Counted from the first letter of the stretch, positions 26,267 to 45,703 are shown. The stretch: DNA of 64,000 nucleotides from Acidobacteriota bacterium (GCA_016195325.1 JACPZX010000016.1:8703-72702); one strand, 5' to 3'. A program made the numbers and translations. Notes: generated by a model from the letters alone, not told the origin.

Positions 26267-28180
26267 ATGGCGCTTCAGAAGCTCGGCAAGTACGAGATCG
26301 TCGGAGAACTGGGTCGCGGCGCCATGGGCGTCGTCTACAAGGCCTTCGATCCGGTCCTCGAGCGCGAGGTCGCTCTCAAGACGATGATGGCGTCCATGAG
26401 CGGCATGGACGCGGAGAGCAAGGCCCGCTTCTACCGCGAGGCCCGCTCGGCGGCCAAGCTCACCCACCGGAACATCGTCACCATCTACGACATGGGCGAG
26501 GAAGAGGGAATCCCCTTCATCGCGATGGAGTTCCTCGACGGGGTCGACCTGCACAAGAAGATGAAGCGCGACGGCCCGATGCCCCTCAAGGAGGGGCTCA
26601 AGATCACCAGCCAGATCCTGCACGGCCTGAACTACGCGCACCAGTTCCAGATCGTGCACCGCGACATCAAGCCCGCCAACGTCTACATCCTGAAGAACGG
26701 GACCGCGAAGATCCTCGACTTCGGCATCGCCAAGCTCGCCAGCTCCGAGATGACGCGCACGGGGATGGTCCTGGGGACGGTCGACTACATGTCGCCCGAG
26801 CAGATCCGCGCCGACAAGATGGTGGACGGGCGCTCCGATCTCTTCTCGGCGGGGGTCATCCTCTTCGAGATGATGGCGGGGTGCAAGCCGTTCCCCGGCG
26901 AGACGATCACGCAGGTCATGTTCAAGATCGTCCACGATTCGCCCGGCGAGATGCCCACGGAGCGGGAGCTCCCGCCGAGGCTCGTCGCCATCTCCCGCCG
27001 GGCGCTCGAGAAGGACCCCGCCGTCCGTTTCCAGACCGGCGAGGACTTCGCGAACGATCTCGAGGCGGTGATTCGCGACATCGACGCCGAGCTGACGACG
27101 GTCCGCCAGATGGCGCCCGCGAGCCTCGACCCGCGAGCCGGCATCTCGAACGCGCGGCGGCTCTTCGAAGGAGGCTCCTTCATCGAGTCGGCCGCGATGC
27201 TCCGCGAGGTGCTGAAGAAGGATCCGGAGAACCGGGAGGCGACGGCGCTCTTCACCGTCGTCGAGCGCCGCCTCGGCGGCAGCGACAAGACGGTGATGCT
27301 CGACGGCGAGGGGGCGCAGAAGGCGTCCGGGTCCTCGGGGTCCGGGGCGCGCTCGGGGAGCATCGAGCAGATCCTCGCCGAGATTGAAGAGGAGCGGAAG
27401 ACCGGGCACGACCCGGCCCGGAGCGACGCCGGCAATCCCAACCTGACGCTGAGGCTCGACGATTCGGGGCCGCAGCCCGCGCCCCCGGTGGCGGCGAAGC
27501 CGCAGACGCAGACACCCTCGCGCCCCGCGCCCCCTCCGCCGGTGAGCCCGGATCGTCCCACCGAGCAGTTCACCCCTCCCTCCCGCGCCGTCAGCAGGCC
27601 GGAGCCCCTCCCGAAGGGGGAGAGGAAGACGGAGGCGAAGCCCTCCCCGACCGCCACGCCGAAACCTGCCGCCATGAGGCAGCCCGCCGCTTCGCCGGCC
27701 GCGGCGCGCTCGCCCCTGCCGATGATCCTGGGCGGCGCCGCCGTCCTCGCGCTCATCGTGGGGGTGGTGCTCTACATGAGGAGCTCGAAGCCCGCCCAAC
27801 CCTCCGTCACGACGATCCCTCAGAGCGCCCCGTCGGGGGCCCCCTCCGGGGCGCCGCCGGCGTCCACGGGCGCCCCGGCCGCGGCGACGACCGCGGGGTT
27901 CCTCGCGATCGACGCCGAGCCGTGGGCCGAGGTCACGGCGATCCGCGAGGCAGGCGGGGGGAAGGCGACGGCGCTGCCGGCGGAGGCGGGGCACGCGGGA
28001 CCGACGACCCCCCTCGTCGTCCCTCTCCCACCGGGCCGCTACGAGGTCGTCCTCAGGAATCCCGAGTTCCAGGAAGTGACCCTGCGCGACGTGCAGATCG
28101 CGCCGGGGGAGTGGACCCGAAAGCACCAGATGATGCCCGGATTCTCCTACAAGTCGAAGATGCCGGCGGGAGTTCCTTGA
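26267..28180 (+). CDS. Hanks-type Ser/Thr protein kinase with a C-terminal TM helix and an extracytoplasmic PEGA-like domain
   Basis: GELGRGAMGVVYKA…VALK, HRDIKPANV, DFGIAK and SPEQ motifs. A Pro-rich linker leads to TM helix ILGGAAVLALIVGVVLYM and a ~120-aa C-terminal PEGA-like beta domain. Confidence 0.9.
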   Translation: MALQKLGKYEIVGELGRGAMGVVYKAFDPVLEREVALKTMMASMSGMDAESKARFYREARSAAKLTHRNIVTIYDMGEEEGIPFIAMEFLDGVDLHKKMKRDGPMPLKEGLKITSQILHGLNYAHQFQIVHRDIKPANVYILKNGTAKILDFGIAKLASSEMTRTGMVLGTVDYMSPEQIRADKMVDGRSDLFSAGVILFEMMAGCKPFPGETITQVMFKIVHDSPGEMPTERELPPRLVAISRRALEKDPAVRFQTGEDFANDLEAVIRDIDAELTTVRQMAPASLDPRAGISNARRLFEGGSFIESAAMLREVLKKDPENREATALFTVVERRLGGSDKTVMLDGEGAQKASGSSGSGARSGSIEQILAEIEEERKTGHDPARSDAGNPNLTLRLDDSGPQPAPPVAAKPQTQTPSRPAPPPPVSPDRPTEQFTPPSRAVSRPEPLPKGERKTEAKPSPTATPKPAAMRQPAASPAAARSPLPMILGGAAVLALIVGVVLYMRSSKPAQPSVTTIPQSAPSGAPSGAPPASTGAPAAATTAGFLAIDAEPWAEVTAIREAGGGKATALPAEAGHAGPTTPLVVPLPPGRYEVVLRNPEFQEVTLRDVQIAPGEWTRKHQMMPGFSYKSKMPAGVP

Positions 28181-28270
28181 GCCGGCGCCGACGATTCGAG
28201 TTCACACGGCCCATCCCATCGGTTGGACGACGGAGTCCAGAGGGGCCCAGGAAACCATGGAGGCAGATGC

Positions 28271-29602
28271 ATGAGAAGTGAAACGCGATTCATCGCCCGG
28301 GCGGCCGCCCTGACGCTCGCCGTGCTCCTCGCTGGATCGGCCGCGCTCTTCGCGATCACCGACGAAGAGGTCTTCCGCGACTTCCGGTTCAACCTCAGCA
28401 ACCCGGGAGCGCGGTCGATCGCGCTCGGCGGCGCGTTCATCGCCGTCGCCGACGACGCGACCGCCTCGCTCGCGAACCCGGCCGGCCTGATGCTCCTCGC
28501 GCGCCCCGAGTTCTTCACCGAGATCCGCGACTCGAAGGCCGACTCGTCGTCGATCCAGCAGGCGTTCGGCGGCGGCCAGGGAATCGTCTCCACGACCGAT
28601 CCGCGGGCGACCTTCGGCCCGTCGTTCATCTCCTACGTCTACCCGTGGAAGCGCTTCGCGGCCGGCATCTCGCGCCTCGAGCTCAACACCACCAACAACA
28701 ACACCTCGAACGCGTTCGCGCTGTCGTTCGACCCGAACAACCCGTCGAACCTCTTCGTCCTGGGCGGGCGCGGATCGATCCAGTCCGACCTCTCGGTCTG
28801 GAACGTCTCCGGCGCGGCCAAGATCACCGACAAGATCTCCGTCGGCGCGACCGTGGCCATCGGCGTCCTCAGCCTGCGCTCGAGCGTCACCAACACCCTG
28901 ACCGACAGCAGCGACCCGAACAGCCCGACCTTCAACATCCCGCAGACGCTCTACACCACCGACATCAACTCCACCGACACCGACTTCGCCTTCAACGCCG
29001 GAGTCCACTGGCGCCCGTGGTCGAAGCTCTCCTTCGGCGCCGTCTACCGCGGCGGCATGAAGTTCAAGGTGGCGGAGACCGTCGCCAACGACGGATTCTT
29101 CGGGGGCGGCTTCGCGGCGTCGCTCGGGAGCCCGCTGAGCACGACCTTCAACACCCCCGACAGCTGGGGCGCGGGCGCGGCGTGGCGGCCGCTCGCGGCG
29201 CTCACCGTCTCGCTCGACTGGGTGCACATCAAGTACTCGCAGCTCCTCGACGGCTTCCAGTCCGGGCTGAACGTGCTGACGATCTTCGACCAGCAGGCGA
29301 AGTTCACGATCCACGACACCGACGAGTTCCATCTCGGCGGCGAGTGGGTCTTCACCGCGGGATCGGTCCCGTGGGCCGTCCGCGGCGGCGCGTACAGCGA
29401 GCACAACGCCCGCGTCTTCGCGGACTTCAAGAACGGGCAGTCGAGCTTCTCGAGCAACGACTCGTTCCCCCCGCGCGACGTCGTCACGCACTACACCGTC
29501 GGCACGGGCGTCGTCGTCAAGGACCGGTTCCAGATCGACGCGGCGGCCGACTTCTCGAAACTGGCGAATGCCTATGTCGTCTCGACGATCTTCCGGTTCT
29601 GA
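28271..29602 (+). CDS. FadL/TodX-family outer-membrane beta-barrel (hydrophobic-compound channel)
   Basis: ATG at 28271 with a GGAGG SD. Signal peptide, the FadL N-terminal signature GARSIALGGAFIAVADDATASLANPAGL, alternating beta-strand pattern and a C-terminal aromatic residue (…VSTIFRF). Confidence 0.7.
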   Translation: MRSETRFIARAAALTLAVLLAGSAALFAITDEEVFRDFRFNLSNPGARSIALGGAFIAVADDATASLANPAGLMLLARPEFFTEIRDSKADSSSIQQAFGGGQGIVSTTDPRATFGPSFISYVYPWKRFAAGISRLELNTTNNNTSNAFALSFDPNNPSNLFVLGGRGSIQSDLSVWNVSGAAKITDKISVGATVAIGVLSLRSSVTNTLTDSSDPNSPTFNIPQTLYTTDINSTDTDFAFNAGVHWRPWSKLSFGAVYRGGMKFKVAETVANDGFFGGGFAASLGSPLSTTFNTPDSWGAGAAWRPLAALTVSLDWVHIKYSQLLDGFQSGLNVLTIFDQQAKFTIHDTDEFHLGGEWVFTAGSVPWAVRGGAYSEHNARVFADFKNGQSSFSSNDSFPPRDVVTHYTVGTGVVVKDRFQIDAAADFSKLANAYVVSTIFRF

Positions 29603-30407
29603 CCCGCGGCGTCACGCCGCGGTGACGATCTGGCTCCTCGGGGCCGCGATCTGGGCGTCCGTCCTGCCCGCCGTCGCGGCCCCTCTCCCCCAGGCCTCGC
29701 CGACGACGCCGGGCTCGCCTCCCTGGTACGAGGCGTACCAGAGGGCGGTGGCCGACGCCGAGCTCGAGAACTGGGAGGGGGTCGAGGCGAAGATCGATCA
29801 GGCCCTCAAGCTCAACGCGAAGTCGGAGAGAAACGTGCGCACGTACGGGATGTGGCACGCGTCGTACATCCCGTACTACTACCTCGGCATGGCCCAGTAC
29901 CACATGGGGAAGGGGAACGAGGCCCTCAAGAGCCTGCAGAGGGAGGAGGCGGCCGGCGTCGTGCAGCACGACCCTGTCGCGTACCTGAAGCTCCGGAAGA
30001 TCTCGGACGCGATCGAGGCGGGGCCCAAGGCCCCGCCGTCCGCCGCCGCGACCTCGACGGCGGCTCCACCCGCCGCCTCGAAGCCGGCCACCGCCGCCTC
30101 GACGAAGGCCGACGCCCTCGTGGGCGGCCTGCAGGCCTTCTTCCAGGGTAACTACGACAGGTCGATCTCCCTCTTCCAGGAAGAGATGAAGCGCACGACC
30201 ACCGACGATCTGACGCTCCACCTCTACCTCGGCATGGCCTACGCCGGCAAGGCGTCGGAGCAGCCGGGGCAGAAGGAGATCTGGCGGAACCTCGCCATCC
30301 TCGAGTTCCAGCGCGTGCACGCGCTCGACTCCGCGTACACGCTCGCCTCTGGGGTCTTCTCGGAGGAGATGGTCGTGCTGTTCAACGAGGCGCAGAAGAA
30401 GAAATGA
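29568..30407 (+). CDS. Secreted TPR-like protein, paralog A
   Basis: Signal peptide (…VTIWLLGAAIWASVLPAVAA) and TPR-like helices containing the motif SYIPYYYLGMAQYH. The start is ambiguous (ATG 29568/29574 or GTG 29622), and it overlaps the end of the FadL-like gene. Confidence 0.6.
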   Translation: MPMSSRRSSGSDPRRHAAVTIWLLGAAIWASVLPAVAAPLPQASPTTPGSPPWYEAYQRAVADAELENWEGVEAKIDQALKLNAKSERNVRTYGMWHASYIPYYYLGMAQYHMGKGNEALKSLQREEAAGVVQHDPVAYLKLRKISDAIEAGPKAPPSAAATSTAAPPAASKPATAASTKADALVGGLQAFFQGNYDRSISLFQEEMKRTTTDDLTLHLYLGMAYAGKASEQPGQKEIWRNLAILEFQRVHALDSAYTLASGVFSEEMVVLFNEAQKKK

Positions 30408-31792
30408 AGGCCGTTCGCGTCGCCGCCGCCGTGCTTTTCCTGCTCGCGCTCGCCCTCCCCTCGCCCGCGTTCGCGGGATGGGAGTCGAGCTACAAGGACG
30501 GCAAGGCGGCGTACGACGCGGGCGAGTACGCGAAGGCGATCAAGCTCCTGAAGGAGGCGATCGACGCCAAGGGGGACGAGAAGGCCAACGCCCTCAAGTC
30601 CAGCGGCATGTTCTTCGAGTCCTACCTCCCGCACTACTACCTCGGCATGGCGCTCTTCCAGAAGAAGGACTTCAAGGGCGCCATCGACGAGCTCAACGCC
30701 AGCGAGGAGGCGAAGGTCATCCAGAAGTCGAAGGACCTCTTCGCCCAGCTGAGGCAGACGCGCACCGCCGCCGAGGCCGCCGCCGCGGCGGGCGGGGCGC
30801 CCCCCCAGGTCGCGCAGAACACCCCTCCCCCCCCGGCGGCGACACCGCCGAAGGAGACTCCCCCCGAGACGGTGAAGGAGACGCCGAAAGAGACGCCCCC
30901 TCCCGTGAAGGAGGCGCCGAAGCCCGCCCCCATTCAACCCGTCCCGATGGGCCCCGACCCCGCCCTGACCTCCGCCCTCAACGCCGCGGCGGCCGACATC
31001 GCGGCGGCGCAGAAGTTCGCCGTCGACAACGCGAAGTACCTCGACGACGGCGAGAAGCGCCATCTCGACACCCTCGCCACCGACATCCGCGGCGGGCAAA
31101 CGCCGGCCGCCGTCGGCGCGAAACGCCAGGAGCTCGACCGCGCGATCGCCGAACTCCGCGGCAAGAGCGCCGAGCGGAAGAAGGCCGAGGACGATCGCCT
31201 CGCGCAGCAGAGGAAAGATCAGGAGGCCCTCCAGGCGCGCGCGGCGCAGAACAAGGCCCTCGCCGACGCCGTGGCGAAGGCCAACCCCGTCTTCACCGAG
31301 GCCGAAGGATTTCTCGCCGACAACCGCACGAACCTCGCCCCCGCCGACGCCCAGAAGATCCAGGGGCTCCTGGAAGGGGCGCGCCGCGGCGCGACCCCCG
31401 ACGCCGTCACGAAGAGCGCCGCCGAGCTGAAGGGGGCGGTCAGCGCCGCGCGCCGCTCCCTCGACGATCGGCGCGCCGCCACGGCGCGAGAGGCCCAGGC
31501 CCAGTACGGGCGCGCCGTCGAGGCCTACTTCAACGGCCACTACGACGACGCGCTCCCCGCTCTTCTCCAGGCGAGCGGCGGCCTCCCGAAGGACGCGACG
31601 CTCAAGGGGATGCTCGGGTCCACCTATTACAAGAAGTACCTCCTCTCGAACGGCGCCGACACCCTCTCGAAGCAGCAGGCCGAGGAGGCCTTCCGCTCGG
31701 CGGTGTCGGTGGATCGCAGCTTCTCGCTCGACCCCCGCTACTTCCCGCCGAAGATCGTCGCGTACTTCAAAGAGGTCACCGGCCGGAGGTGA
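30404..31792 (+). CDS. Secreted TPR-like protein, paralog B, with a Pro-rich linker and coiled-coil region
   Basis: Signal peptide MKAVRVAAAVLFLLALALPSPAFA, the motif SYLPHYYLGMALFQ shared with paralog A, a PPPPAATPPKETPPETVKETPKETPPP linker, and long Ala/Glu/Arg-rich helices. ATGA overlap with paralog A. Confidence 0.7.
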   Translation: MKAVRVAAAVLFLLALALPSPAFAGWESSYKDGKAAYDAGEYAKAIKLLKEAIDAKGDEKANALKSSGMFFESYLPHYYLGMALFQKKDFKGAIDELNASEEAKVIQKSKDLFAQLRQTRTAAEAAAAAGGAPPQVAQNTPPPPAATPPKETPPETVKETPKETPPPVKEAPKPAPIQPVPMGPDPALTSALNAAAADIAAAQKFAVDNAKYLDDGEKRHLDTLATDIRGGQTPAAVGAKRQELDRAIAELRGKSAERKKAEDDRLAQQRKDQEALQARAAQNKALADAVAKANPVFTEAEGFLADNRTNLAPADAQKIQGLLEGARRGATPDAVTKSAAELKGAVSAARRSLDDRRAATAREAQAQYGRAVEAYFNGHYDDALPALLQASGGLPKDATLKGMLGSTYYKKYLLSNGADTLSKQQAEEAFRSAVSVDRSFSLDPRYFPPKIVAYFKEVTGRR

Positions 31793-31847
31793 GCGAAGCT
31801 CAGCCGCCCGTTCCAGCTCCTCGCCGAGTTGACGACTCGCGCGTGGA

Positions 31848-32280
31848 CATGACCGAGCTGGTGATGCCCGGCGACGCGAACGTCCTCGGAAACGTCTTCG
31901 GCGGCCGCGTGATGGCCCTCATCGACAAGGCGGCGGCGATGGTCGGCATCCGCCACTGCCGCTCGATCGTGGTCACGGCGTCGGTCGACAGCATCGACTT
32001 CATCGCGCCGATCAAGCTCGCCGACATCATGAGCTTCCACGCGCGCATCACGCAGGCTTTCCGGACGTCTTTGGAAGTGCGCGTGGACGTCCACTGCGAG
32101 GATCCGCGCTCGGGGCGGCGGCTGTTGGCGACCTCCGCCTTCGCCACGATGGTGAGCCTCGGCCCTGACGGGAAGCCCCAGCCCGTGCCGCCTCTCGTCC
32201 TCGAGTCCGACGCCGAGCGCGCCGAGGCGGCGGCCGCCGACAAGCGACGAGCCCTGCGCCTCGCCCGCCGCGGCGCGTGA
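31848..32280 (+). CDS. Hotdog-fold acyl-CoA thioesterase (YciA-like)
   Basis: MTELVMPGDANVLGNVFGGRVMALIDKAAAM…, characteristic of YciA/4HBT family thioesterases. Confidence 0.75.
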
Positions 32281-33815
32281 GCATCACCGGGTCTCGGACC
32301 GAAATACCTCCTTCGCGGTTGTCGCCGGGGAATTCCTTCTCGCGGGAGGCCCGGCTCCTTGGGCCGGACGAAATCCATGCGTGGTCCGCTGGAGCGGGGG
32401 ATCTCCTCGAGCTGTACGGGCTGACTCTTCTCGAGTGTCGAGTGATCCCGCTGCGGGAGGCGGTGCGTCCGGTGCGCGGGGAGTTGGAGACCGTGCATCG
32501 TCCCCGGCTCGCGGTGGCGGCCGCGGTGGCGGCGCTGGCGGTGACGGTGCGGGGCCGAGGGGCGCTGCTCGATCTACCTTCTGATCAACGCGCCGCGGCG
32601 AAGGAGTCGATCAAGGAGCGGAACGATCGCGCGGCGGCTTGCGCGCTGGCGGAGGGGCTCTTCTCGCTCGCCTCGGCATCGGATTCCGTCTGCGAGATCG
32701 CGATCGGCGAGGGGGTGCGAAAGAAGCCCGACGAGCGCGGGTCGAACCCGACGCTCTACGCGGGACAGAGGTTTGGCTCATCTGGTTCGGTCACGTACTC
32801 GGTGGCCGTCGATGCGGTCGAGGGAACATCCAAGAGCACGGTGGCGGAGGGCTCGTCCGGGTGCCTTTTCTACATCACGCCGGCGGCGATCCGGAGGGTG
32901 CCCGACCTCTACTTCAACCGGTGTCACCTGTTCGAGGTCCCGGGAGTGCACGTCGATTCGGATCTGGGGGAGATCCTGGCGGCGATCTGTCGGTCTCGCG
33001 GGGGGATCGACGTCTTCTCGCTCGATCGGCCGCGGCATCCGCACGCGCTGATGGCGTCGCTCGGGGCGAACGTGCGGACCGATGCGGACGGCGACGCCTT
33101 TCCCGTGGTCGCCACGGGACTTCGCTGGGGCGTCTTCCCGGACGACGGGCGGTGTCTCGATGGCGTCGTCGGGAACATCGGCGGCGCGGCGGAGGTGATC
33201 GCCTCGTCGGCGGCGGCGCATTACCTCGGTGTCCGATCGTCGGTCCGGTTCGCGGCCTCGTCGATCTCGCGGTGGGAGGATCGGTACGCGTTCTCGTCTT
33301 CGGATGTCGAGACGATTCGCGCCGCGGGTTTCGACGAGTCGGTGGTCTACCGGATCGAGGATCTCGTGCCGGGGATCGATTCCGCAGACGGTCTCTTCGT
33401 GGCGTCGGCGATCACAGACAACGCGCACATTCCTCTTCTCGACGCGGCGGTGTGGGGGTCGAACTTCGCGGAGGCCTCGGTGCTGATCGTGGGCGCTTCT
33501 GGGGAGGCTTCGATTTTCCGGCTGTCATTCGGATTCGCCTCGGCGGACGCCGCCGCACGGCGGCTCACGCCGATTCTGGACGGGCTGCTCGCGTTGCCGC
33601 CAGAGGAGATGAAGCAGTCGATCCGGCAGGCGCTCAGCTCGCCGAGCGGCGCGAGGCGGCTGAGGCACGAGTTTCAGTCGACGTACTACCGGTACTTCAC
33701 GGAGGAGGGGGGCCGATTCAAGTTGGACCTGGCTTCGACCGACGATGGGGAATCGCATCATGCGATCCGGTTCCTGCGCACACTCGTAGAACTGGCGCCG
33801 GAGTGGCTCGGCTGA
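32277..33815 (+). CDS. Class II fructose-1,6-bisphosphatase (GlpX) family protein with N- and C-terminal extensions
   Basis: The central ~330 aa align to GlpX: CEIAIGEGVRKKPDE…TLYAGQRFGSSGSVTYSVAVDAVEGTS ~ [21 protein letters not shown]…DIAVDPIEGT; DRPRHPHALMASLGANVRTDADGDAFPVV ~ AKPRHDAVIAEMQQLGVRVFAIPDGDVAA; NIGGAAEVIASSAAAHYLG ~ GIGGAPEGVVSAAVIRALDG. The GTG start overlaps the thioesterase stop (GTGA). Total length 512 aa, against ~330 for canonical GlpX. Confidence 0.65.
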   Translation: MSITGSRTEIPPSRLSPGNSFSREARLLGPDEIHAWSAGAGDLLELYGLTLLECRVIPLREAVRPVRGELETVHRPRLAVAAAVAALAVTVRGRGALLDLPSDQRAAAKESIKERNDRAAACALAEGLFSLASASDSVCEIAIGEGVRKKPDERGSNPTLYAGQRFGSSGSVTYSVAVDAVEGTSKSTVAEGSSGCLFYITPAAIRRVPDLYFNRCHLFEVPGVHVDSDLGEILAAICRSRGGIDVFSLDRPRHPHALMASLGANVRTDADGDAFPVVATGLRWGVFPDDGRCLDGVVGNIGGAAEVIASSAAAHYLGVRSSVRFAASSISRWEDRYAFSSSDVETIRAAGFDESVVYRIEDLVPGIDSADGLFVASAITDNAHIPLLDAAVWGSNFAEASVLIVGASGEASIFRLSFGFASADAAARRLTPILDGLLALPPEEMKQSIRQALSSPSGARRLRHEFQSTYYRYFTEEGGRFKLDLASTDDGESHHAIRFLRTLVELAPEWLG

Positions 33816-33824
33816 ATCCGGCGA

Positions 33825-35282
33825 TCAATCCTCCGAGATCGCCCCTGAAGGCCCGGTTTCGATCGGCGCGGCCGACTTCGCCCCCGCCCTCCCCGACCCC
33901 GGCGGCGGCATCCTCACCTCGATCGGCTTCACCCACTTCGCGACAGTGGCCGCCCCGCCGTCCACGCGGAGCTGCTTGAAGAGGAACTCGAACTTCGCCT
34001 CGAGCGTCGCCCGCATCGCCTCCCGGATGGACGAAGGCAGCCCCCAGAGCTGAGCCTTGAACGGACCCCAGGTCCTCTTCCGCGCCTTGTAGTTGAACTG
34101 CTCGTCGGTCATCCCGGCCTTCCGCTCGTCGGCGCAGTGCACCCCGCACCACGCGTACATCTCCGCCCGAAGCTCCTTAGGCAACGCCGGATGATCGAAG
34201 AGGATGTTCTGGAACTCCGTCGCGAGATGGACCTCCGCGGCCCCGGCCTCCGGAAACTTCCCGAACGCCTCGGCAGGCAGAGTCGAAGCCCCGTGCTGCA
34301 CCGACCCCGCCATCCCGTACTCTCGGCGCGCGATGTCGGTGATCGAGCGAAGCACGCCAAAATCCAGAGCGACCTTCGCGACGGTGCCGTCCGCCAGAGG
34401 CACCCCGCCGTGTGATGTCCCCGTTTGAACCGAGATCTTGCTGGGCCCCCGAACGCCCCCGAGCCGCGCGAACTCGGCCGAAAACCCGGACATGAAGGTA
34501 CGGAACTCCTCCGGCGTCGAGTTCTTTCCGCCGACCTCTCCGATCTCGGCGCCGATGGAGATGACGACCCCCGCCGGCTGCCTCTTCCTCACGAGAGCCC
34601 CCAGGCCCGCCGCCTCCGTGAAGTTTTCCCGCTGCTGCTCGACGAGGGACGGGCGATCGAGGATGACGAGCGTCGACGAATCAATGTCGATGTTGTAGAA
34701 GCCGGCCGCTACCGCATCGACCACCAGCGCGCGAAGGGCCGTGAGCTCCCCTTCCCGCGACGCCCCGCCGGCCTGGTACTTCTTGGGCGAAACCTGGAAG
34801 TGATCCCCCTGGATGAAGAGGGGGCCGGTGAGCCCCTCCCGAAGCGCCGCCGCGATGACGACCGTCGCGTACTCGGCGGGCTTCTGGAAGGTGTACCCCA
34901 TCTCCGAGCGCGCCAGCTCGAAGACGACCGGCCCGGCCGAGAGCTTCTTCATCGTGCGGACGACGGCGCGCGCGCTGTCGTAGGCGAGGCCGCGGAGGTT
35001 CAACGCCGGGGTCGTGAAGCCCGAGGCCTCGCCCCGCCCCATCGCGTCGTAGAGAGGCTGGATCGACGCGGGGACGAGACCCCGTAGCCTCGCGAGCTCG
35101 TGGATGAGCCAGCGCGCGGTCTCCTGCTCGTCGTCCGAGCCGAAGACCGCCTTCTCGACGAGGCGATCGATCACCTCGCCGGTGAGGGCCTTCGGATCGG
35201 TGAGCGAGACGTCCCACGCCGCCGAGACGGAGACGATGTCCTTGAACGAGTCGATGAGCGCGCGCGCGCCGCCTGATGACAC
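33825..35282 (-). CDS. Class II (metal-dependent) fructose/tagatose-bisphosphate aldolase family protein, long form
   Basis: 485 aa. FIQGDHF, SIGAEIGEVGG, SVQTGTSHGG and GSVQHGASTLP correspond to the conserved TDH / E-x-G-x-x-GG-E-E / GN-x-HG / HG-x-SG blocks of class II aldolases. Confidence 0.65.
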   Translation of the reverse strand: MSSGGARALIDSFKDIVSVSAAWDVSLTDPKALTGEVIDRLVEKAVFGSDDEQETARWLIHELARLRGLVPASIQPLYDAMGRGEASGFTTPALNLRGLAYDSARAVVRTMKKLSAGPVVFELARSEMGYTFQKPAEYATVVIAAALREGLTGPLFIQGDHFQVSPKKYQAGGASREGELTALRALVVDAVAAGFYNIDIDSSTLVILDRPSLVEQQRENFTEAAGLGALVRKRQPAGVVISIGAEIGEVGGKNSTPEEFRTFMSGFSAEFARLGGVRGPSKISVQTGTSHGGVPLADGTVAKVALDFGVLRSITDIARREYGMAGSVQHGASTLPAEAFGKFPEAGAAEVHLATEFQNILFDHPALPKELRAEMYAWCGVHCADERKAGMTDEQFNYKARKRTWGPFKAQLWGLPSSIREAMRATLEAKFEFLFKQLRVDGGAATVAKWVKPIEVRMPPPGSGRAGAKSAAPIETGPSGAISED

Positions 35283-35401: not shown

Positions 35402-38368
35402 TCAGTTCTGGGTCTGCCCCGAAAAGAAGGGGAACGGCGCGGGGCAGCGACGGATCACGACGCGCTCGGCCCCGGAGGAGGCGTACCCGGGACTGCCCTC
35501 GTTCCCCTCTTCGGGGGTGACCGCGGGGTTCACGGTCAGCGTGGAAACTTTCGTCATGACGTACACGAACGCCGTTCCGGGAAGCGGCGTCGCGGTGTCC
35601 ACCGCGTGCGGCGTAGCCACCCGCTCGAAGCAGTCCGCGTCGGCGAGCGACGTCGAGCCGTCCAGCGTGGCGCGATAGACGTGATAGGCACCCTGCCCCG
35701 CCTCGGCCTTCCATCGAAGATCGATCCCCGGTGTCCCCTGCGCGCTCCCGTCGTACACCTCGACGCCGGCAATGAGGCCGTCGTCCCCGTCGCAGGCGTC
35801 CCCTGCGCCGTCCGCGTCCCGGTCGTGCTGGTTGGGGTTCGCGGCGGTGGGGCAGTTGTCGAGGGCGTTGGGGACACCGTCCCCATCAAGGTCCGGATCG
35901 GAAACGTCGGCGATGCCGTCGTTGTCGTCGTCCGGATCGCAGACGTCTCCGAGCCCGTCCCGATCGTTGTCGGCCTGGTCGACGTTGGGCGTCGCCGGGC
36001 AGTCATCGCCGGCATCCCCGATGCCGTCCCCATCCGCGTCGGCCTGGAGCGGGTTGAACGCCGCCGGGGCGTTGTCATCGGGGGAGCACCAGCCGTCCTG
36101 GTCGGCGTCGTTCATCGCGTCGGCCGGGCAGAAATCGCACGCGTCGCTGATGCCGTCCCCGTCGGCGTCGGCGAGCCCCGGGAGGGCGCGGGCGTCGCAG
36201 GAATCGAGGACCTGGAAGTCGTCGACGCCGGCCTCGGTCACGTTGTCCTCGTTCCCCGTGTTGTTGTCGGAATCGCTCGCCAGGAACCGGACGCCGACCG
36301 AGGATGGGCGCGCGAGGACGGTCTGCACCGATCGATTGACCTCGCGCCACCGGGGTGTCGGCGGGGGAAGCATGTAATCCTGCTCGGGGATCCCGTCCTC
36401 GAGCGGAAACCAGGTCGCGAAGTAGTCCGTCGAAGCGTCCACGTGCCAGCGCTGCCTGGACGGGTAGGCTGAGTACCACGAGAAGTACGAGATCACGGGA
36501 TGGTCGAGGTTCGAGATGTCGTAGAGCTGGGTGCGGAGCGTCGTCCTCCCGTGCTTCACGTCGGCGCTCACCGCGCCCCCGCCGGGCTCGCCCTGGCCGG
36601 TGACGAATGCCGTGCTGCCGCTCCCCGGAGTGTGATCGTCCTCCGGCTGCGAGGGGTCGCCCCAGTACAGGTGCGTGCCGATGGGATCCACGCGCTCCCA
36701 GGCGCCGTGCATCGCCGAATCGTCGTTGAGAGGGTTGACGAGCCACCCGGGATCGCTCTCCATGTCGAAGGCAAGGTACGCGGGAGCCAGGCTCAGGCTC
36801 ACGCTGGCCGGCCGCTGCGGCGTTGCTTCGACTTCCTCCGAGACGGGGGTGAACCCGAGCTTCGCGGCGCGCAGGGTGTAGACCCCTCGCGGCACCCGCG
36901 GCAGGGAGAAGATCCCGGCGGCGTCGGAGGTCGCCGAAAGAGCGGTGCCGGCGACGGTGACTTGCGCCCCTTCGAGCGCGTCTCCCGACGCCGTCGTCAC
37001 GACCCCCGAGATCGAGCCCGCCGGAAGCGGCGTCAGCTCGATATCGACCGTCTTCCGCGGCCCGACCGCGGCCGTCGTCGAGACGAACCGCCCCCTGTAA
37101 CCCTGCGCGATGGCGCCGAGCGTGACCGGCCCCGGATCGGCGTCGAGGGCGTAACGGCCCCCTTCATTCGTCGACACGGGCCGGTTCTCGCCGATCCGGC
37201 GCACCGAGGCCCCCGGGATCGGCAGCCCGCTGACGGCATCCCGCACCGTTCCGGTGAGGATGCCGTACTGCCCCGTGAACGAAAGGACGAAGAGGCCATC
37301 CTCGTAGTCGCTCATCAGGATGTTCCCCGAGGGGAGGTACGGGTACACGCCGCGGGTGCCGGGGGGGACGTTCTGGTCGTCGCCGACCTCCTCCGGCGGC
37401 ATCTGGTCGTAGAAGCCGACCTCGACGGGCATCGTCGGGTCTGCGATGTCCACGATGCGCAGCCCGTCCTCGGTCCACGCGCAGTAGGCGAGATCCCCCT
37501 TCACGCGGACGTCGCGGATCGACGTGTGGAAGCGATGATCGGAGTTGGGGCCGACGAAGCTCGACACCCTCGACGGCGCGTTGGGGTTCGACACGTCGTA
37601 GATCGAGAGGTATCCGCCGCCGTCCTTGCGAAAGTCGGCCGCGAGGAGATGGCGGCCGTCGTCGGTCACGGTCACGTTCCAGGAATATCGAAGGGGCTCC
37701 GGAAGGGTGCTGAGCACGGTGGGCCGCGAGCGGTTCGTGATGTCCAGGATCTGCACGTTCCCGTCGTAGACGTTCGACGAGAATAGGAGGTTGCCGCGCA
37801 CGTGGCTCGCGTAGGTCGGGATCGGGAGCGGGATCCCGGCAAACAGGCCGAGGTCCACGGGATGGATCGGGTCGGCGAGGGAGATCTCCTTGACCCCTCC
37901 CGTGCCGCCGGCCCCGAGCCCGCTCACGAAGATCCGATCCTGCGAGTCGACGAACAGGGTGTCCCCGGAGTTGAAGGACTGCGTGTACGTGCCGACGAGG
38001 CTCACCGTCCCGGGGAGCCCCGCGAGATCGATGATCTGGAGCCCGCCAGGGTCGCTGTACACCCTCCCTGAGCTGTAGGCGTAATGGCCCGCGGTCCTCA
38101 CGTCCCGGAGATCGAGGCCGACCGCGGTCCCCGAAACGTACGCGCGCTCCACGGGATTGTCCGGGTCGGTCACGTCAACGACCATCGTCCCCGTGTATTC
38201 GCCGAGCAGGGCGTACTCGCGTCCCGCGGCCGCGTATCCCCAGATTCCCGCGTACTCGGCGTGCGGGGCGAGGCGCGAGTGGAAAATCACCCTCTTCGAA
38301 CTCTGCGCCGCTGCCGGGGCGGCGAACCCGATCAGTGCCATCGCCAGGATCGCGAGCGTTCGTCTCAT
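35402..38368 (-). CDS. Large secreted protein: LVIVD-repeat beta-propeller, two CarboxypepD_reg-like domains and a thrombospondin type-3 Ca-binding repeat array
   Basis: ATG at 38368 gives signal peptide MRRTLAILAMALIGFAAPAAAQ. About six LVIVD-type repeats (…YAYSSGRVYSDPGGLQIIDLAG…). A TSP3-like D-x-D-x-D-G-x-x-D-x-C-D array (DADGDGISDACD…DADGDGIGDAGDDCP…DNDRDGLGDVCDPDDDNDGI…DLDGDGVPNALDNCP) is also visible as DNA-level repeats at ~35750-36200. Confidence 0.75.
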   Translation of the reverse strand: MRRTLAILAMALIGFAAPAAAQSSKRVIFHSRLAPHAEYAGIWGYAAAGREYALLGEYTGTMVVDVTDPDNPVERAYVSGTAVGLDLRDVRTAGHYAYSSGRVYSDPGGLQIIDLAGLPGTVSLVGTYTQSFNSGDTLFVDSQDRIFVSGLGAGGTGGVKEISLADPIHPVDLGLFAGIPLPIPTYASHVRGNLLFSSNVYDGNVQILDITNRSRPTVLSTLPEPLRYSWNVTVTDDGRHLLAADFRKDGGGYLSIYDVSNPNAPSRVSSFVGPNSDHRFHTSIRDVRVKGDLAYCAWTEDGLRIVDIADPTMPVEVGFYDQMPPEEVGDDQNVPPGTRGVYPYLPSGNILMSDYEDGLFVLSFTGQYGILTGTVRDAVSGLPIPGASVRRIGENRPVSTNEGGRYALDADPGPVTLGAIAQGYRGRFVSTTAAVGPRKTVDIELTPLPAGSISGVVTTASGDALEGAQVTVAGTALSATSDAAGIFSLPRVPRGVYTLRAAKLGFTPVSEEVEATPQRPASVSLSLAPAYLAFDMESDPGWLVNPLNDDSAMHGAWERVDPIGTHLYWGDPSQPEDDHTPGSGSTAFVTGQGEPGGGAVSADVKHGRTTLRTQLYDISNLDHPVISYFSWYSAYPSRQRWHVDASTDYFATWFPLEDGIPEQDYMLPPPTPRWREVNRSVQTVLARPSSVGVRFLASDSDNNTGNEDNVTEAGVDDFQVLDSCDARALPGLADADGDGISDACDFCPADAMNDADQDGWCSPDDNAPAAFNPLQADADGDGIGDAGDDCPATPNVDQADNDRDGLGDVCDPDDDNDGIADVSDPDLDGDGVPNALDNCPTAANPNQHDRDADGAGDACDGDDGLIAGVEVYDGSAQGTPGIDLRWKAEAGQGAYHVYRATLDGSTSLADADCFERVATPHAVDTATPLPGTAFVYVMTKVSTLTVNPAVTPEEGNEGSPGYASSGAERVVIRRCPAPFPFFSGQTQN

Positions 38369-38616
38369 GGCCTCACCCCCACTCGCCTCGCCGGTCGGGA
38401 GAGCGGCGGGCGAACCGGCCGAATTGTGACTCGAGAAATCGAACGGATGCGGAAAGCTCCGGAGCGAGCGCCTAGCGTGCGACACTTACCGTGAGCCACG
38501 ATACGCGTCAAGGGGAATAATTGCCACCGACCTGCTGCCGTAGCAGCAAGCCTGGCGGGCACGAGGGAGGCCGCCCGCCCGATCGAGCTTCGACCGGGCG
38601 GGCGACGGTTCGGGAG

Positions 38617-40431
38617 CTAGACGCTCACGATGTCGTAGTGTTCGTGGTGCAGCGACGGATCGGGCTTGATGACCAGCTCCGTGCCGTTCCGCGAGCCGAG
38701 CCCCTCGAGGAGCACCCCCCTCTCGAGCTCCATCTCGGCCGCCACCTCGGGGTTCGCCCGGATGACGAGCTTCTTGCCGTCCATGCTCGGCGCGAGGCGG
38801 CGGATCTCCCGCTGGACCTCGAAGAGCACGGTCGGGTTCGACTTCACCTTCCCGGTGCCCGTGCAGTACGGGCACGAGCGCGTGAGGAGCCTCTCGAGAG
38901 ACTTCTTCGTGCGCTGCCGCGTGATCTCCACGAGGCCGAAGTCGCTGATCTGGAGGACCTTCGTGCGGGCGCGGTCCTTCATCAGCTCCTTCTCGAAGGC
39001 CTCGTTGAGCTTGCGCCGGTTCTTCCGGTCCTCCATGTCGATGAAGTCGACGACGATGATGCCGCCGAGATCGCGGAGCCTCAGCTGCCGCACGATCTCG
39101 CCGACCGCCTCGAGGTTGGTCTTGAGGACCGTCTCCTCGAGGTTGCGCCGGCCGACGAACTTCCCGGTGTTGACGTCGACCGCGACGAGCGCCTCGGTCT
39201 GGTTGATGACGATGTAGCCGCCGGACTTCAGCCACACCTTGCTCTTGAGCGCCTTGTCGAGCTCGGCCTGGACGCCGTACTTGTCGAAGACCGGCAGCTC
39301 CTCGTCGTAGTAGTGGACCTTCTTCACGTCGGCCGGATCGAAGAGGCTCAGGAAGTCGACGGCCTGCTTGCGGGCCTTCGGGCTGTCCACGACGACCTTG
39401 TTGACCCCGGCGTTGAAGTGGTCTCTCAGGATCCTGAGGAGCGGGTCCATCTCGGCGCGCACGAGCGCCGGAGCGACGACCTTCTCCGCGTTCTTGCGGA
39501 TCTCCTCCCAGATGCCCGTGAGGAACTTGACGTCCCCCTCGAGCTCCTCCTTGCCGGCGCTGTCGGCGACGGTGCGGATGACGAAGCCCAGGCCGTGCTT
39601 GCGCGCCTTCTCGACCGCCTTCCGGAGGCGCGCCCTCTCGCGGGCGTCGCCGATCTTGCGGCTCACGCCGACGTGATCGACCTGCGGCATCAGAACGAGA
39701 AAGCGGCCCGCGATCGTCACGTAGCTCGTGATGCGCGCGCCCTTCGTGCCGATCCCCTCCTTCGTGACCTGCACGAGGAGCTCCTGCCCTTCCTTGAGGA
39801 GCGCCTGGATCGGCGCGCGGCGGTCGGGCTTCGGGACGTCCTTGCGGATCTCGTCCCCTCCCTCGACGTCGTCGAGGTTCAGCGGCCCCTCGTAGTCGTC
39901 GAACCCCGGCGAGATGTCGCTCACGTACAGGAACGCGTCGCGCTCCAGGCCGATGTCGACGAACGCCGACTGCATGCCGGGGAGGACCTTGGAGACCTTC
40001 CCCTTGTAGACGTTGCCGACGACCCCGGGCGCGTTCTCGCGCTCGATGAAGATCTCGGCGAGCGCCCCCTTCTCGAGGATGGCGATCCGGGTCTCGCGCG
40101 ACGTGTCGTTGACGACGATCGTGCGCTCCGGCCCGGCGCTCTTCAGCCGGCGCTTCTGCGAGCGGCTCGGCTCGGGCTCGTCGAGCTCGGCCTCCACCTC
40201 GACCACGGGCCGGGGCTCGATCCCCTCGTCCCCCTCGGCCGGCTCGGGGAGCAGCTCCAGCACCGGCGTCGAATCGTCGGGCTCGAGCGCCTCGATCGGA
40301 ATGGGCTGCTCTTCGGTTCCGTTCTCCCCGTTGCCGGGAGCCTTCTGCGAGGTTCCCGCCGGGCTCTTTCCACCACGACCGCGCCCACCGCGGCGGCCGC
40401 GTCTTCTTCTTCTCTTCAATTCACCAGACAT
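38617..40431 (-). CDS. rng: Ribonuclease E/G family endoribonuclease with an Arg/Lys-rich N-terminal extension
   Basis: The ATG at 40431 gives [21 protein letters not shown]…. An S1 domain (VGNVYKGKVSKVLPGMQSAFVDIG) and the RNase E/G catalytic core follow, ending in the Zn-link CPYCTGTGKVKS. Its position after mreBCD-mrdA-rodA matches the conserved mre-rng neighbourhood. Confidence 0.85.
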   Translation of the reverse strand: MSGELKRRRRRGRRGGRGRGGKSPAGTSQKAPGNGENGTEEQPIPIEALEPDDSTPVLELLPEPAEGDEGIEPRPVVEVEAELDEPEPSRSQKRRLKSAGPERTIVVNDTSRETRIAILEKGALAEIFIERENAPGVVGNVYKGKVSKVLPGMQSAFVDIGLERDAFLYVSDISPGFDDYEGPLNLDDVEGGDEIRKDVPKPDRRAPIQALLKEGQELLVQVTKEGIGTKGARITSYVTIAGRFLVLMPQVDHVGVSRKIGDARERARLRKAVEKARKHGLGFVIRTVADSAGKEELEGDVKFLTGIWEEIRKNAEKVVAPALVRAEMDPLLRILRDHFNAGVNKVVVDSPKARKQAVDFLSLFDPADVKKVHYYDEELPVFDKYGVQAELDKALKSKVWLKSGGYIVINQTEALVAVDVNTGKFVGRRNLEETVLKTNLEAVGEIVRQLRLRDLGGIIVVDFIDMEDRKNRRKLNEAFEKELMKDRARTKVLQISDFGLVEITRQRTKKSLERLLTRSCPYCTGTGKVKSNPTVLFEVQREIRRLAPSMDGKKLVIRANPEVAAEMELERGVLLEGLGSRNGTELVIKPDPSLHHEHYDIVSV

Positions 40432-43365: not shown

Positions 43366-43832
43366 ACGGCTTTCTCTCTGCGAAGAAGTTGGAATGCGGT
43401 CCAGCCGACGGCCGTGTTGCCAAGGATGCCGGCGAACAGTTCAGGGAGGGGCGGAAGGACGAGTTGCCTTCCCATCACGACGAGGGTCAGAAGGTCCAGA
43501 AGCCTCACGGCGAGTGTCCCGCCGGCGATCACCAGGAGCTGGGAGAGCGGTCTGGTGAGGACGAATCGATTTCCGGCGGCTCCGACCACGTAGCCCGTGA
43601 GCCCTCTCGCCACCGAAGCGGCTCCGAGGAGGCTCCCCGTCAGGCTGTCCTGCACGATTCCCACTCCGGCGCCAATCAGCAGCGCCGCGACGGGCCCGCG
43701 GTCGAGGCCATAGTATAGGACCACGAGCAGTGGAAGATCAAAGAAGATGGCGCTCGAGGGCCAGAGCGACGAGACGAAGAGTTGCCCGAAGAGCGTCCCC
43801 AGCAGCGCCAGACCTCCCCAAACCCACGTCAC
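43362..43832 (-). CDS. mreD: Rod shape-determining protein MreD
   Basis: ~156-aa polytopic membrane protein in the mreC-mreD-mrdA order. The GTG start overlaps the mreC stop (GTGA), and the stop overlaps the mrdA ATG (ATGA). Confidence 0.75.
   Translation of the reverse strand: MTWVWGGLALLGTLFGQLFVSSLWPSSAIFFDLPLLVVLYYGLDRGPVAALLIGAGVGIVQDSLTGSLLGAASVARGLTGYVVGAAGNRFVLTRPLSQLLVIAGGTLAVRLLDLLTLVVMGRQLVLPPLPELFAGILGNTAVGWTAFQLLRREKAV

Positions 43833-44653: not shown

Positions 44654-45703
<1,050 letters not shown>

What the first reader, a model, noticed from the sequence alone, without database searches (positions are those of the whole stretch)
31848..35282. Thioesterase translationally coupled to an over-long GlpX-like bisphosphatase, facing an over-long class II aldolase-like gene
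- Bisphosphatase: it keeps the GlpX metal-site motifs but carries ~85-aa N-terminal and ~50-aa C-terminal extensions. It overlaps a hotdog thioesterase by GTGA.
- Aldolase: the convergent 485-aa gene has class II aldolase catalytic blocks but is ~130 aa longer than FbaA or GatY.
- Why it matters: neither gene looks like the housekeeping gluconeogenic enzyme. Together they may act on a non-canonical sugar bisphosphate, or be moonlighting or regulatory variants.
Basis: partly seen in the sequence, partly recalled or inferred. Interest (0 to 1): 0.55.

Follow-up and report, generated by a model that had tools for sequence, protein, structure and literature searches.

The report
Divergent over-long FBPase and aldolase pair
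Two unusually long sugar-metabolism genes in a soil or sediment acidobacterium are real and keep their catalytic residues, and they are most likely the cell's ordinary fructose-bisphosphate aldolase and fructose-bisphosphatase in little-studied forms, while the overlap with the thioesterase gene looks like a local accident of gene order.

Summary
A hotdog thioesterase (31789/31849..32280) overlaps by GTGA a 512-aa GlpX-like gene (32277..33815). That gene ends 9 nt from a convergent 485-aa class II aldolase-like gene (33825..35282).

The extra lengths are not miscalls. 42 homologues of the phosphatase are 509-537 aa and align end to end. The aldolase belongs to a very large family of ~460-490 aa proteins found in many phyla.

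All ten GlpX catalytic residues are kept, and so are the catalytic Asp and three Zn-binding His of class II aldolases. AlphaFold models are confident: pLDDT 93 and 90.

Gene context points to central carbon metabolism, not an exotic pathway:
- The long GlpX sits next to the long aldolase in three separate lineages.
- It follows TIM plus the long aldolase in one lineage, and TIM plus an FbaB-like class I aldolase in another.
- It lies beside a PPi-type PFK in close relatives.
- In other phyla the long aldolase sits next to a class I FBPase, PFK, PGI or pyruvate kinase.

The thioesterase belongs to an upstream FadL/TPR operon. In most relatives an opposite-strand gene separates it from GlpX.

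Verdict: a probable FBA/FBPase pair from divergent subfamilies. The long GlpX clade is rare and its extra domains are undescribed. Interest is modest.

The parts
28223..29602 (+). FadL/TodX-type outer-membrane transporter gene, first gene of the upstream operon (context, not part of the sugar pair)
   Evidence: PF03349 Toluene_X at E 1.9e-15. The same gene order occurs in L001, L008, L009 and L011.
29568..30407 (+). 279-aa secreted or TPR-like protein gene of the upstream operon
   Evidence: ORF. It has a weak TPR_2 match and is conserved in L001, L008, L009 and L018. It shares an ATGA overlap with the next gene.
30404..31792 (+). 462-aa TPR protein gene whose stop overlaps the thioesterase start (GTGA at 31789-31792)
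   Evidence: TPR_1 and TPR_2 hits, overlap seen, synteny.
31789..32280 (+). Hotdog (4HBT, YciA-like) acyl-CoA thioesterase gene, 163 aa from GTG 31789 or 143 aa from ATG 31849
   Evidence: PF03061 at 71.1 bits. NF007970 YciA scores 59.8 bits against a cut-off of 162. Homologues align from residue 4-16 of the long form.
32277..33815 (+). Long GlpX-type (class II) sugar bisphosphatase gene, 512 aa, probable fructose-1,6-bisphosphatase
32277..32492 (+). N-terminal extension of the long GlpX (residues 1-72), absent from canonical GlpX
   Evidence: Conserved across 43 sequences, with a mean majority-residue frequency of 0.59 against 0.74 in the core. pLDDT is 91-97. Also present in relatives of 25-34% identity.
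33537..33812 (+). C-terminal extension of the long GlpX (residues 421-512): helical with a small hairpin, and invariant R461-L462-R463, E465, Y471, W510
   Evidence: No convincing structural match beyond the GlpX core.
33816..33824 (.). 9-nt spacer between the convergent stop codons, with no terminator-like hairpin
   Evidence: The gap is 0 nt in L003.
33825..35282 (-). Long class II (Zn-dependent) ketose-bisphosphate aldolase gene, 485 aa, probable fructose-1,6-bisphosphate aldolase

Best explanation
The two convergent genes most likely encode this acidobacterium's fructose-1,6-bisphosphate aldolase and fructose-1,6-bisphosphatase, the consecutive steps DHAP + GAP <-> FBP -> F6P + Pi.

The aldolase belongs to a widespread, structurally unsolved clade of ~465 aa. 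It has a class IIB-type Zn site with three His plus the catalytic Asp. Its TIM barrel carries N- and C-terminal helical additions like those of GatZ and UxaE.

The phosphatase belongs to a rare, deeply divergent clade of the GlpX fold. It keeps the full GlpX catalytic set, so it presumably uses the same two-metal, Thr-assisted hydrolysis of the 1-phosphate. It adds a ~72-aa N-terminal module, a K-P-G-E-x-G-G-N-P loop insertion and a ~90-aa C-terminal helical module.

What the extra modules do is inferred only. Oligomerisation or allosteric control is the most plausible role, because the C-terminus of canonical class II FBPases lies at the tetramer interface and AMP site.

The thioesterase is the last gene of an upstream FadL/TodX-TPR operon. 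Its 4-nt overlap with GlpX arose in this lineage when an intervening opposite-strand gene was lost.
For: Shown:
- All ten published GlpX active-site residues (PMC5892879) map to conserved residues. They include the Tyr/Arg/Arg triad that binds the FBP 6-phosphate.
- The aldolase keeps N95, D160-H161, E246, H291, H330 and the G-A-S phosphate loop when aligned to GatY.

Context:
- The long GlpX and long aldolase are adjacent in all acidobacterial loci with enough flank.
- They are also adjacent, but co-directional, in two distant lineages, L085 and L089.
- L089 reads TIM -> long aldolase -> long GlpX.
- L030 reads TIM -> FbaB-like class I aldolase -> long GlpX.
- A PFK lies directly upstream in L001, L002, L008 and L009.
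- In other phyla the long aldolase sits next to a class I FBPase (L103), PGI and pyruvate kinase (L102, L005) or PFK (L101).
- The aldolase is 52-70% identical across phyla, as expected of a core enzyme.

Thioesterase: it is separated from GlpX by MgtC(-) or PFK(-) in most relatives.
Against: - No enzyme assay exists for either clade, and I found no paper on them.
- Both proteins fall far below the NCBIfam equivalog cut-offs.
- In the aldolase, the Asn that binds the DHAP enediolate (GatY N230, E. coli FbaA N286) is an invariant His (H352). The catalytic-loop GG-x-EDD is G-G-K-N-S-T.
- Most of the 65 distant long-GlpX loci have no sugar-metabolism neighbour.
- Y212 is replaced by Arg in some distant members.
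- Whether the genome has other fba or fbp genes is unknown. None lies in the 64-kb window.
Confidence: 0.7

Rival explanations
1. The pair acts on a different sugar bisphosphate. Examples are tagatose-1,6-bisphosphate, or sedoheptulose-1,7-bisphosphate in an SBP-type pentose-phosphate bypass. Alternatively the phosphatase is a dual FBP/SBPase like the cyanobacterial class II enzyme.
For: - The aldolase has N-V-A-T-like 'H-L-A-T' instead of the N-I-D-T of FBP-specific enzymes, and it aligns best with the tagatose-bisphosphate aldolase GatY.
- The best PDB profile hit of the phosphatase is the dual FBP/SBPase 5a5l.
- The PFK next to it in relatives has the PPi-type GGDDT/PKTMDND signature. By my own knowledge, such enzymes serve SBP bypasses in some organisms.
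- L031 has GmhA-like and cytidylyltransferase genes nearby.
Against: - No galactitol, tagatose, PTS or heptose genes are conserved around either gene.
- The recurrent partners are TIM, PFK, PGI, PK and FBPase I.
- The scores to 5a5l and to E. coli GlpX are practically equal.
- Dual FBP/SBP activity would extend the main explanation, not replace it.
Confidence: 0.12
2. The 'aldolase' is really a C4 epimerase of the GatZ, UxaE or tagatose-4-epimerase kind, working by a retro-aldol/aldol mechanism without releasing the trioses. The GlpX-like enzyme then dephosphorylates its product.
For: - There is a weak PF08013 hit: 25.0 bits against a cut-off of 26.7.
- The segment around E122 and G-Y-T..P-x-E-Y resembles GatZ.
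- The Asn-to-His change and the altered catalytic loop also fit.
Against: - GatZ-type epimerases bind the metal with His, His and Glu (PMC11907403). This family has the three-His FBA-type site and the Asn (N95) that supports the catalytic Asp.
- hhalign gives 97% probability to GatY but only 66% to GatZ, over 83 columns.
- Sequence identity is higher to FBAs (22%) than to the epimerases (14-16%).
- The TIM -> aldolase -> FBPase order in L089 makes sense only for a triose-condensing enzyme.
Confidence: 0.08
3. The thioesterase and the GlpX-like protein work together, for example on an acyl- or CoA-linked phosphosugar or in lipid-linked regulation. The translational coupling would reflect that.
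For: - There is a GTGA overlap in the window.
- A 4HBT gene lies upstream on the same strand in every acidobacterial locus.
- A very weak Foldseek local match links part of the GlpX-like model to hotdog thioesterases: E 0.026-0.15 over ~70 columns.
Against: - In L001, L002, L008 and L009 a PFK on the other strand lies between the two genes. In L011-L016 it is an MgtC gene on the other strand.
- The thioesterase is instead translationally coupled to the upstream TPR gene in the window, L008 and L009.
- No 4HBT gene sits near the long GlpX in any of the ~70 distant loci.
- The Foldseek match is not significant.
Confidence: 0.03
4. The extra lengths are gene-calling artefacts, meaning wrong starts or read-through.
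For: 32277 is a GTG start without an obvious Shine-Dalgarno sequence.
Against: - 42 homologues match the query in length and cover 98-100% of it.
- The N- and C-terminal regions are conserved even at 25-34% identity.
- AlphaFold folds them at pLDDT above 90 (N-terminal region) and about 75-95 (C-terminal region), with pTM 0.93.
- The aldolase family is 458-494 aa in many phyla.
Confidence: 0.01

Closest known systems
Class II fructose-1,6-bisphosphatase GlpX (E. coli 1ni9/3d1r, M. tuberculosis 6ayy, F. tularensis 7txa) and the cyanobacterial dual FBP/SBPase (3roj, 5a5l)
   Different: It is 512 aa against 320-350 aa. It adds an N-terminal ~72-aa module, a 16-aa insert, a K-P-G-E-x-G-G-N-P loop and a ~90-aa C-terminal module. 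Identity is only ~20-24%. TIGR00330 scores 50.8 bits against a cut-off of 259. In an exhaustive search, canonical GlpX proteins reach only E 1e-13 to 1e-8 against the family profile.
Class IIB ketose-bisphosphate aldolases (E. coli GatY/AgaY 1gvf, Thermus aquaticus FBA 1rv8, Giardia FBA)
   Different: It is ~465-485 aa against 284-305 aa. It has extra N-terminal (~85 aa) and C-terminal (~100 aa) helical parts. His stands in place of the enediolate-binding Asn, and the catalytic loop is altered. No PDB sequence matches at E below 0.005, even with a profile.
GatZ/KbaZ, UxaE and tagatose 4-epimerase (class II aldolase-like C4 epimerases; 2fiq, 6il9, 9kct)
   Different: The metal site is His/His/His rather than His/His/Glu. 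Identity is 14-16%. PF08013 falls just below its cut-off. The gene context is glycolytic, not galactitol or hexuronate.
Bifunctional FBP aldolase/phosphatase (class V FBPase of archaea and deep-branching bacteria); comparison from my own knowledge
   Same: It performs the same two consecutive reactions. Here they are encoded by two tightly adjacent genes in several lineages.
   Different: The fold is unrelated, and it is one polypeptide with one remodelling active site. Nothing here shows a physical complex.
YciA-type acyl-CoA thioesterase (hotdog fold)
   Same: PF03061 domain with the D-x-N...G-G motif.
   Different: It scores below the YciA equivalog cut-off. It is part of a FadL/TodX-TPR operon, and no link to the sugar genes holds up.

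Membership tests
Class II FBPase (GlpX; PF03320 / TIGR00330) | Scores above the Pfam PF03320 gathering threshold | tested here: met
   69.6 bits against 27.
Class II FBPase (GlpX; PF03320 / TIGR00330) | Scores above the NCBIfam TIGR00330 equivalog cut-off | tested here: not met
   50.8 bits against 259.3. This places it in the superfamily, but not as an equivalog by sequence.
Class II FBPase (GlpX; PF03320 / TIGR00330) | Active-site residues Asp33, Glu57, Asp85, Glu88, Thr90, Tyr119, Lys164, Arg166, Asp188, Glu213 (E. coli numbering, PMC5892879) | tested here: met
   They map to D117, E145, D179, E182, T184, Y212, R251, R253, D273 and E306. These positions are invariant or nearly so in 43 sequences.
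Class II FBPase (GlpX; PF03320 / TIGR00330) | GlpX two-domain fold | tested here: met
Class II FBPase (GlpX; PF03320 / TIGR00330) | Compact ~320-350-aa architecture without extra domains | tested here: not met
   It is 512 aa with conserved N- and C-terminal modules.
Class II FBPase (GlpX; PF03320 / TIGR00330) | Mn2+/Mg2+-dependent, Li+-sensitive hydrolysis of FBP to F6P | not testable with these tools
   This needs an enzyme assay. Only gene context supports it.
Class II (metal-dependent) ketose-bisphosphate aldolase (PF01116 / TIGR00167) | Scores above the PF01116 gathering threshold | tested here: met
   41.2 bits against 25.5.
Class II (metal-dependent) ketose-bisphosphate aldolase (PF01116 / TIGR00167) | Scores above the NCBIfam cut-offs (TIGR00167, TIGR01859, TIGR01858) | tested here: not met
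   33.2 against 215.6, 20.7 against 343, and 18.4 against 443.6 bits.
Class II (metal-dependent) ketose-bisphosphate aldolase (PF01116 / TIGR00167) | Catalytic Asp plus three Zn-binding His (GatY D82/H83, H180, H208) | tested here: met
   D160/H161, H291 and H330 are invariant in 31 sequences.
Class II (metal-dependent) ketose-bisphosphate aldolase (PF01116 / TIGR00167) | Enediolate-binding Asn (E. coli FbaA N286, GatY N230) | tested here: not met
   It is replaced by an invariant His352.
Class II (metal-dependent) ketose-bisphosphate aldolase (PF01116 / TIGR00167) | Mobile-loop catalytic Glu in G-G-x-E-D-D | tested here: inconclusive
   The loop reads G-G-K-N-S-T-P-E-E. E258 and E259 are nearly invariant and lie a few residues later.
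GatZ/KbaZ-like C4 epimerases (PF08013) | Scores above the PF08013 gathering threshold | tested here: not met
   25.0 bits against 26.7, and only residues 129-259 match.
GatZ/KbaZ-like C4 epimerases (PF08013) | Metal site of two His plus one Glu, with Cys/Glu/Lys in place of the FBA Asn24/Gln48/Asp253 (PMC11907403) | tested here: not met
   The site has three His and Asn95 is kept. Only E122 resembles GatZ Glu44.
YciA-like acyl-CoA thioesterase | Hotdog 4HBT domain, and a score above the NF007970 equivalog cut-off | tested here: inconclusive
   The PF03061 domain criterion is met at 71.1 bits. NF007970 scores 59.8 bits against 162, so that criterion is not met.

The most novel reading that the evidence does not exclude
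The long aldolase and long GlpX (and, in L089 and L030, an over-long TIM) might use their clade-specific extra modules to assemble into a complex. Such a complex could channel triose phosphates through FBP to F6P. It would be a multi-protein counterpart of the archaeal bifunctional FBP aldolase/phosphatase. Alternatively the modules might form a new allosteric switch that sets the direction of flux alongside a reversible PPi-PFK. Nothing here tests physical interaction.
Probability: 0.1. Interest if true: 0.6.

Novelty: new variant of a known kind. Interest (0 to 1): 0.3.

Why it matters
Curated equivalog models miss both proteins. Pathway reconstructions of Polarisedimenticolia-type Acidobacteriota could therefore report a missing FBPase or FBA. 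The same risk applies to the aldolase in Nitrospirota, anammox Planctomycetota, Gemmatimonadota and others.

It has no solved structure and an altered active site (Asn to His). It sits structurally between true aldolases and the C4 epimerases used to make tagatose, so a biochemical and structural study would be worthwhile.

The long GlpX clade is rare. Only 22 of 1.84 billion cluster representatives reach E 1e-30. It adds two undescribed modules to a drug-target fold. If these genes are simply the housekeeping pair, as I conclude, the finding refines annotation and does not reveal a new pathway.

Tried and rejected
- phmmer of the aldolase against PDB sequences found nothing. A profile search reached only E 0.005.
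- The afdb50 fold library was not available.
- De novo clustering of neighbours in ~70 distant long-GlpX loci gave no conserved sugar-metabolism partner. It found only small lipoprotein-like and PilZ-like ORFs.
- Literature searches for either long clade returned nothing relevant.
- The names that sources give are only 'class II fructose-bisphosphate aldolase', 'aldolase' or 'fructose-bisphosphatase class II'.
- No promoter or terminator consensus was found around the genes.
- I could not scan the rest of the genome for canonical fba or fbp. Only the 64-kb window was available, and it holds none.
- The look-up of the window's own aldolase returned only a 6.9-kb Logan contig.
- I considered and rejected a heptose-bisphosphate phosphatase role, suggested by L031. 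That context occurs in a single locus.
Full report
**What is there**

The window is ~68% G+C. Its aldolase-like protein is 100% identical to a protein of an NCBI 'Acidobacteria bacterium' MAG.

On the + strand, five ORFs follow one another with overlapping start and stop codons:
- a FadL/TodX-type outer-membrane protein (28223..29602);
- a 279-aa protein (29568..30407);
- a 462-aa TPR protein (30404..31792);
- a 4HBT hotdog thioesterase (31789..32280 from GTG, with an in-frame ATG at 31849, not 31848);
- a 512-aa GlpX-like protein (32277..33815).

The GTGA overlap between the thioesterase and the GlpX-like gene is real. Nine nucleotides after the GlpX-like stop lies the stop of a convergent 485-aa class II aldolase-like gene (33825..35282). 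No terminator-like hairpin lies between them.

**Are the extra lengths real?**

Yes.
- The GlpX-like protein has 44 relatives in a 5.8-billion-protein collection. All 42 full-length ones are 509-537 aa and cover 98-100% of the query.
- The N-terminal ~72 residues and the C-terminal ~90 residues are conserved. They are less conserved than the core: mean majority-residue frequency 0.59 and 0.62 against 0.74.
- They are still recognisable in relatives of only 25-34% identity.
- AlphaFold2 folds the whole chain as one confident unit: pLDDT 93, pTM 0.93.
- The aldolase-like protein belongs to a family that filled the 8000-hit limit of the search. Its members are 458-494 aa and 52-70% identical across Acidobacteriota, Gemmatimonadota, Nitrospirota, Brocadiia, Polyangia and Tectomicrobia.
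- Its model is also confident at pLDDT 90. Only the last ~18 residues form a disordered tail, which is specific to this lineage.

**The phosphatase**

- Pfam places it in FBPase_glpX at 69.6 bits. The NCBIfam equivalog TIGR00330 scores only 50.8 bits against a cut-off of 259.
- hhalign against E. coli GlpX gives 97% probability. It places GlpX residues 29-308 on residues 113-405.
- The ten residues listed as the class II FBPase active site are Asp33, Glu57, Asp85, Glu88, Thr90, Tyr119, Lys164, Arg166, Asp188 and Glu213 (PMC5892879).
- They correspond to D117, E145, D179, E182, T184, Y212, R251, R253, D273 and E306. All are invariant or nearly so in the acidobacterial clade. Lys164 is Arg, as in the M. 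tuberculosis enzyme.
- The differences are the N-terminal module, a 16-aa insert after the first helix, a family-specific G-E-G-x-R-x-K-P-G-E-x-G-G-N-P loop and the C-terminal helical module. None of these has a convincing structural counterpart.
- An exhaustive profile search of 1.84 billion cluster representatives found only 22 proteins at E <= 1e-30. About a dozen are full-length long forms of 524-576 aa. Canonical GlpX proteins reach only E 1e-13 to 1e-8.
- The clade is therefore rare and deeply separated from ordinary GlpX.

**The aldolase**

- Pfam F_bP_aldolase scores 41.2 bits. GatZ_KbaZ-like scores just below its cut-off, and all NCBIfam aldolase models score far below theirs.
- No PDB sequence matches by phmmer. 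A family profile reaches only GatZ (E 0.005) and AgaY (E 0.05).
- hhalign gives 97% probability to the class IIB tagatose-bisphosphate aldolase GatY, 66% over a short stretch to GatZ, and a weak match to FbaA.
- The GatY alignment puts N95 on the Asn of P-A-F-N and D160/H161 on Asp82/His83. It puts E246 on the alternative Zn-site Glu, H291 on His180 and H330 on His208, followed by the G-A-S phosphate loop. All these residues are invariant.
- This is the three-His site of true aldolases, not the His/His/Glu site described for the GatZ/KbaZ epimerases (PMC11907403).
- Two features depart from canonical aldolases. GatY Asn230 (the enediolate-binding Asn) is an invariant His352. The mobile-loop G-G-x-E-D-D reads G-G-K-N-S-T-P-E-E.
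- The N- and C-terminal helices are thus the accessory parts this clade shares with the long epimerase branch of the superfamily.

**Gene context**

In every acidobacterial locus with enough flank, the order is 4HBT(+), long GlpX(+), long aldolase(-), RNase G(-), RodA, PBP2, MreD, MreC, MreB. The window differs only by a 1027-aa LVIVD/TSP3 secreted-protein gene inserted between the aldolase and RNase G.

Links to central carbon metabolism recur in independent lineages:
- A PFK lies directly upstream of the long GlpX on the other strand in L001, L002, L008 and L009. It carries the PPi-type GGDDT/PKTMDND signature (the rule is from my own knowledge).
- L089 reads TIM -> long aldolase (39% identical) -> long GlpX, all co-directional with short gaps.
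- L085 reads long aldolase -> long GlpX.
- L030 reads TIM -> a 352-aa DeoC/LacD-family protein similar to E. coli FbaB (E 6e-11) -> long GlpX. Here the aldolase partner has been replaced by a non-homologous one.
- In other phyla the long aldolase follows a class I FBPase (L103). It follows pyruvate kinase, an MBL-fold gene and PGI in L102, and pyruvate kinase and an MBL-fold gene in L005. It faces a PFK in L101.

In two other loci (L004, L006) it has no glycolytic neighbour. Most of the ~65 distant long-GlpX loci likewise show no conserved sugar partner. That pattern is typical of housekeeping genes.

**The thioesterase**

- It is translationally coupled to the upstream TPR gene in the window and in L008 and L009.
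- The FadL-279aa-TPR-4HBT block is conserved.
- Between 4HBT and the long GlpX, most relatives carry an opposite-strand gene. It is PFK in one sub-clade and MgtC in another.
- The distant long-GlpX loci have no 4HBT at all.
- The GTGA overlap in the window is therefore best read as a secondary juxtaposition after loss of the intervening gene, not as a functional coupling.

**Interpretation**

The best-supported reading is an FBA/FBPase pair of central metabolism, encoded by divergent subfamilies (confidence ~0.7).
- Shown: fold, catalytic residues, conservation of the extensions, and recurrent glycolytic and gluconeogenic neighbours.
- Inferred: the actual substrates, and the role of the extra modules. 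Oligomerisation or allostery is plausible because the C-terminus of canonical class II FBPases lies at the tetramer interface and AMP site (PMC5892879).
- Rivals: another bisphosphate such as TBP or SBP, or dual FBP/SBPase activity (~0.12); an epimerase rather than an aldolase (~0.08); a real thioesterase link (~0.03); gene-calling artefact (~0.01).

**Novelty and score**

Both proteins are already auto-annotated as 'class II' enzymes in public records. I found no paper on either long clade, and curated equivalog models miss both.

The long GlpX architecture is a new variant of a known kind. The long aldolase is a large clade without a solved structure and with an unusual active-site substitution. 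The finding mainly refines annotation and points to two worthwhile biochemical targets. I rate interest at 0.3.

Noticed in passing
window 35402..38485 (-): A 1027-aa secreted protein with LVIVD, CarboxypepD_reg and thrombospondin type 3 repeats sits between the aldolase and RNase G, where relatives have nothing. The closest relatives (L018, L022) instead carry a >2000-aa secreted-protein gene right after the long GlpX. This spot seems to collect large secreted-protein genes.
   Followed up: partly
window 28223..32280 (+): A FadL/TodX outer-membrane transporter, a 279-aa protein, a TPR protein and a hotdog thioesterase form a conserved block with overlapping starts and stops. A Ser/Thr kinase gene (26267..28180) precedes it. 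The block may be a module for uptake or processing of hydrophobic compounds.
   Followed up: partly
L001 8655..9848 (-); also L002, L008, L009: The PFK next to the long GlpX in relatives has GGDDT and PKTMDND. By my own knowledge this is the Asp104/Lys124 signature of PPi-dependent PFKs. The window has no PFK.
   Followed up: partly
L089 97..1017 and L030 4388..5386: The TIM genes heading the TIM-aldolase-long GlpX clusters are themselves over-long. They are 306 and 332 aa against a 245-position Pfam model, and they match in two stretches. All three enzymes of those clusters therefore carry extra sequence.
   Followed up: no
P0182, P0265, P0286: Three fusion proteins turned up in the exhaustive search. 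P0182 is 1041 aa, with a long-GlpX domain at 484-938 and an N-terminal 480 aa with no Pfam match. P0265 is a transketolase-GlpX fusion of 986 aa. P0286 is an RNase H-GlpX fusion of 489 aa.
   Followed up: partly
L017 4372..5997 (Margulisiibacteriota MAG) and L028-L097: Distant members of the long-GlpX clade (26-32% identity, 524-576 aa) are common in sediment metagenomes and usually stand alone. L017 lies beside PP2C-like and HD-domain genes. L031 lies beside PFK, a GmhA-like SIS protein and a cytidylyltransferase.
   Followed up: partly
window 32277..33815 (model m637e45b31ba6): Foldseek lists non-significant local matches (E 0.026-0.15, ~70 columns) between part of the GlpX-like model and hotdog thioesterases 2cye and 3ck1. 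These are probably noise, but curious given the neighbouring gene.
   Followed up: no
window 38620..45679 (-): An RNase G, RodA, PBP2, MreD, MreC and MreB cell-shape cluster lies downstream. It is 62-92% identical to that of L001.
   Followed up: yes
L006 1249..3213: A Cas4-Cas1 fusion gene and a cas2 gene lie about 5 kb upstream of the long aldolase in a Nitrospirae MAG contig. They are unrelated to the finding.
   Followed up: no
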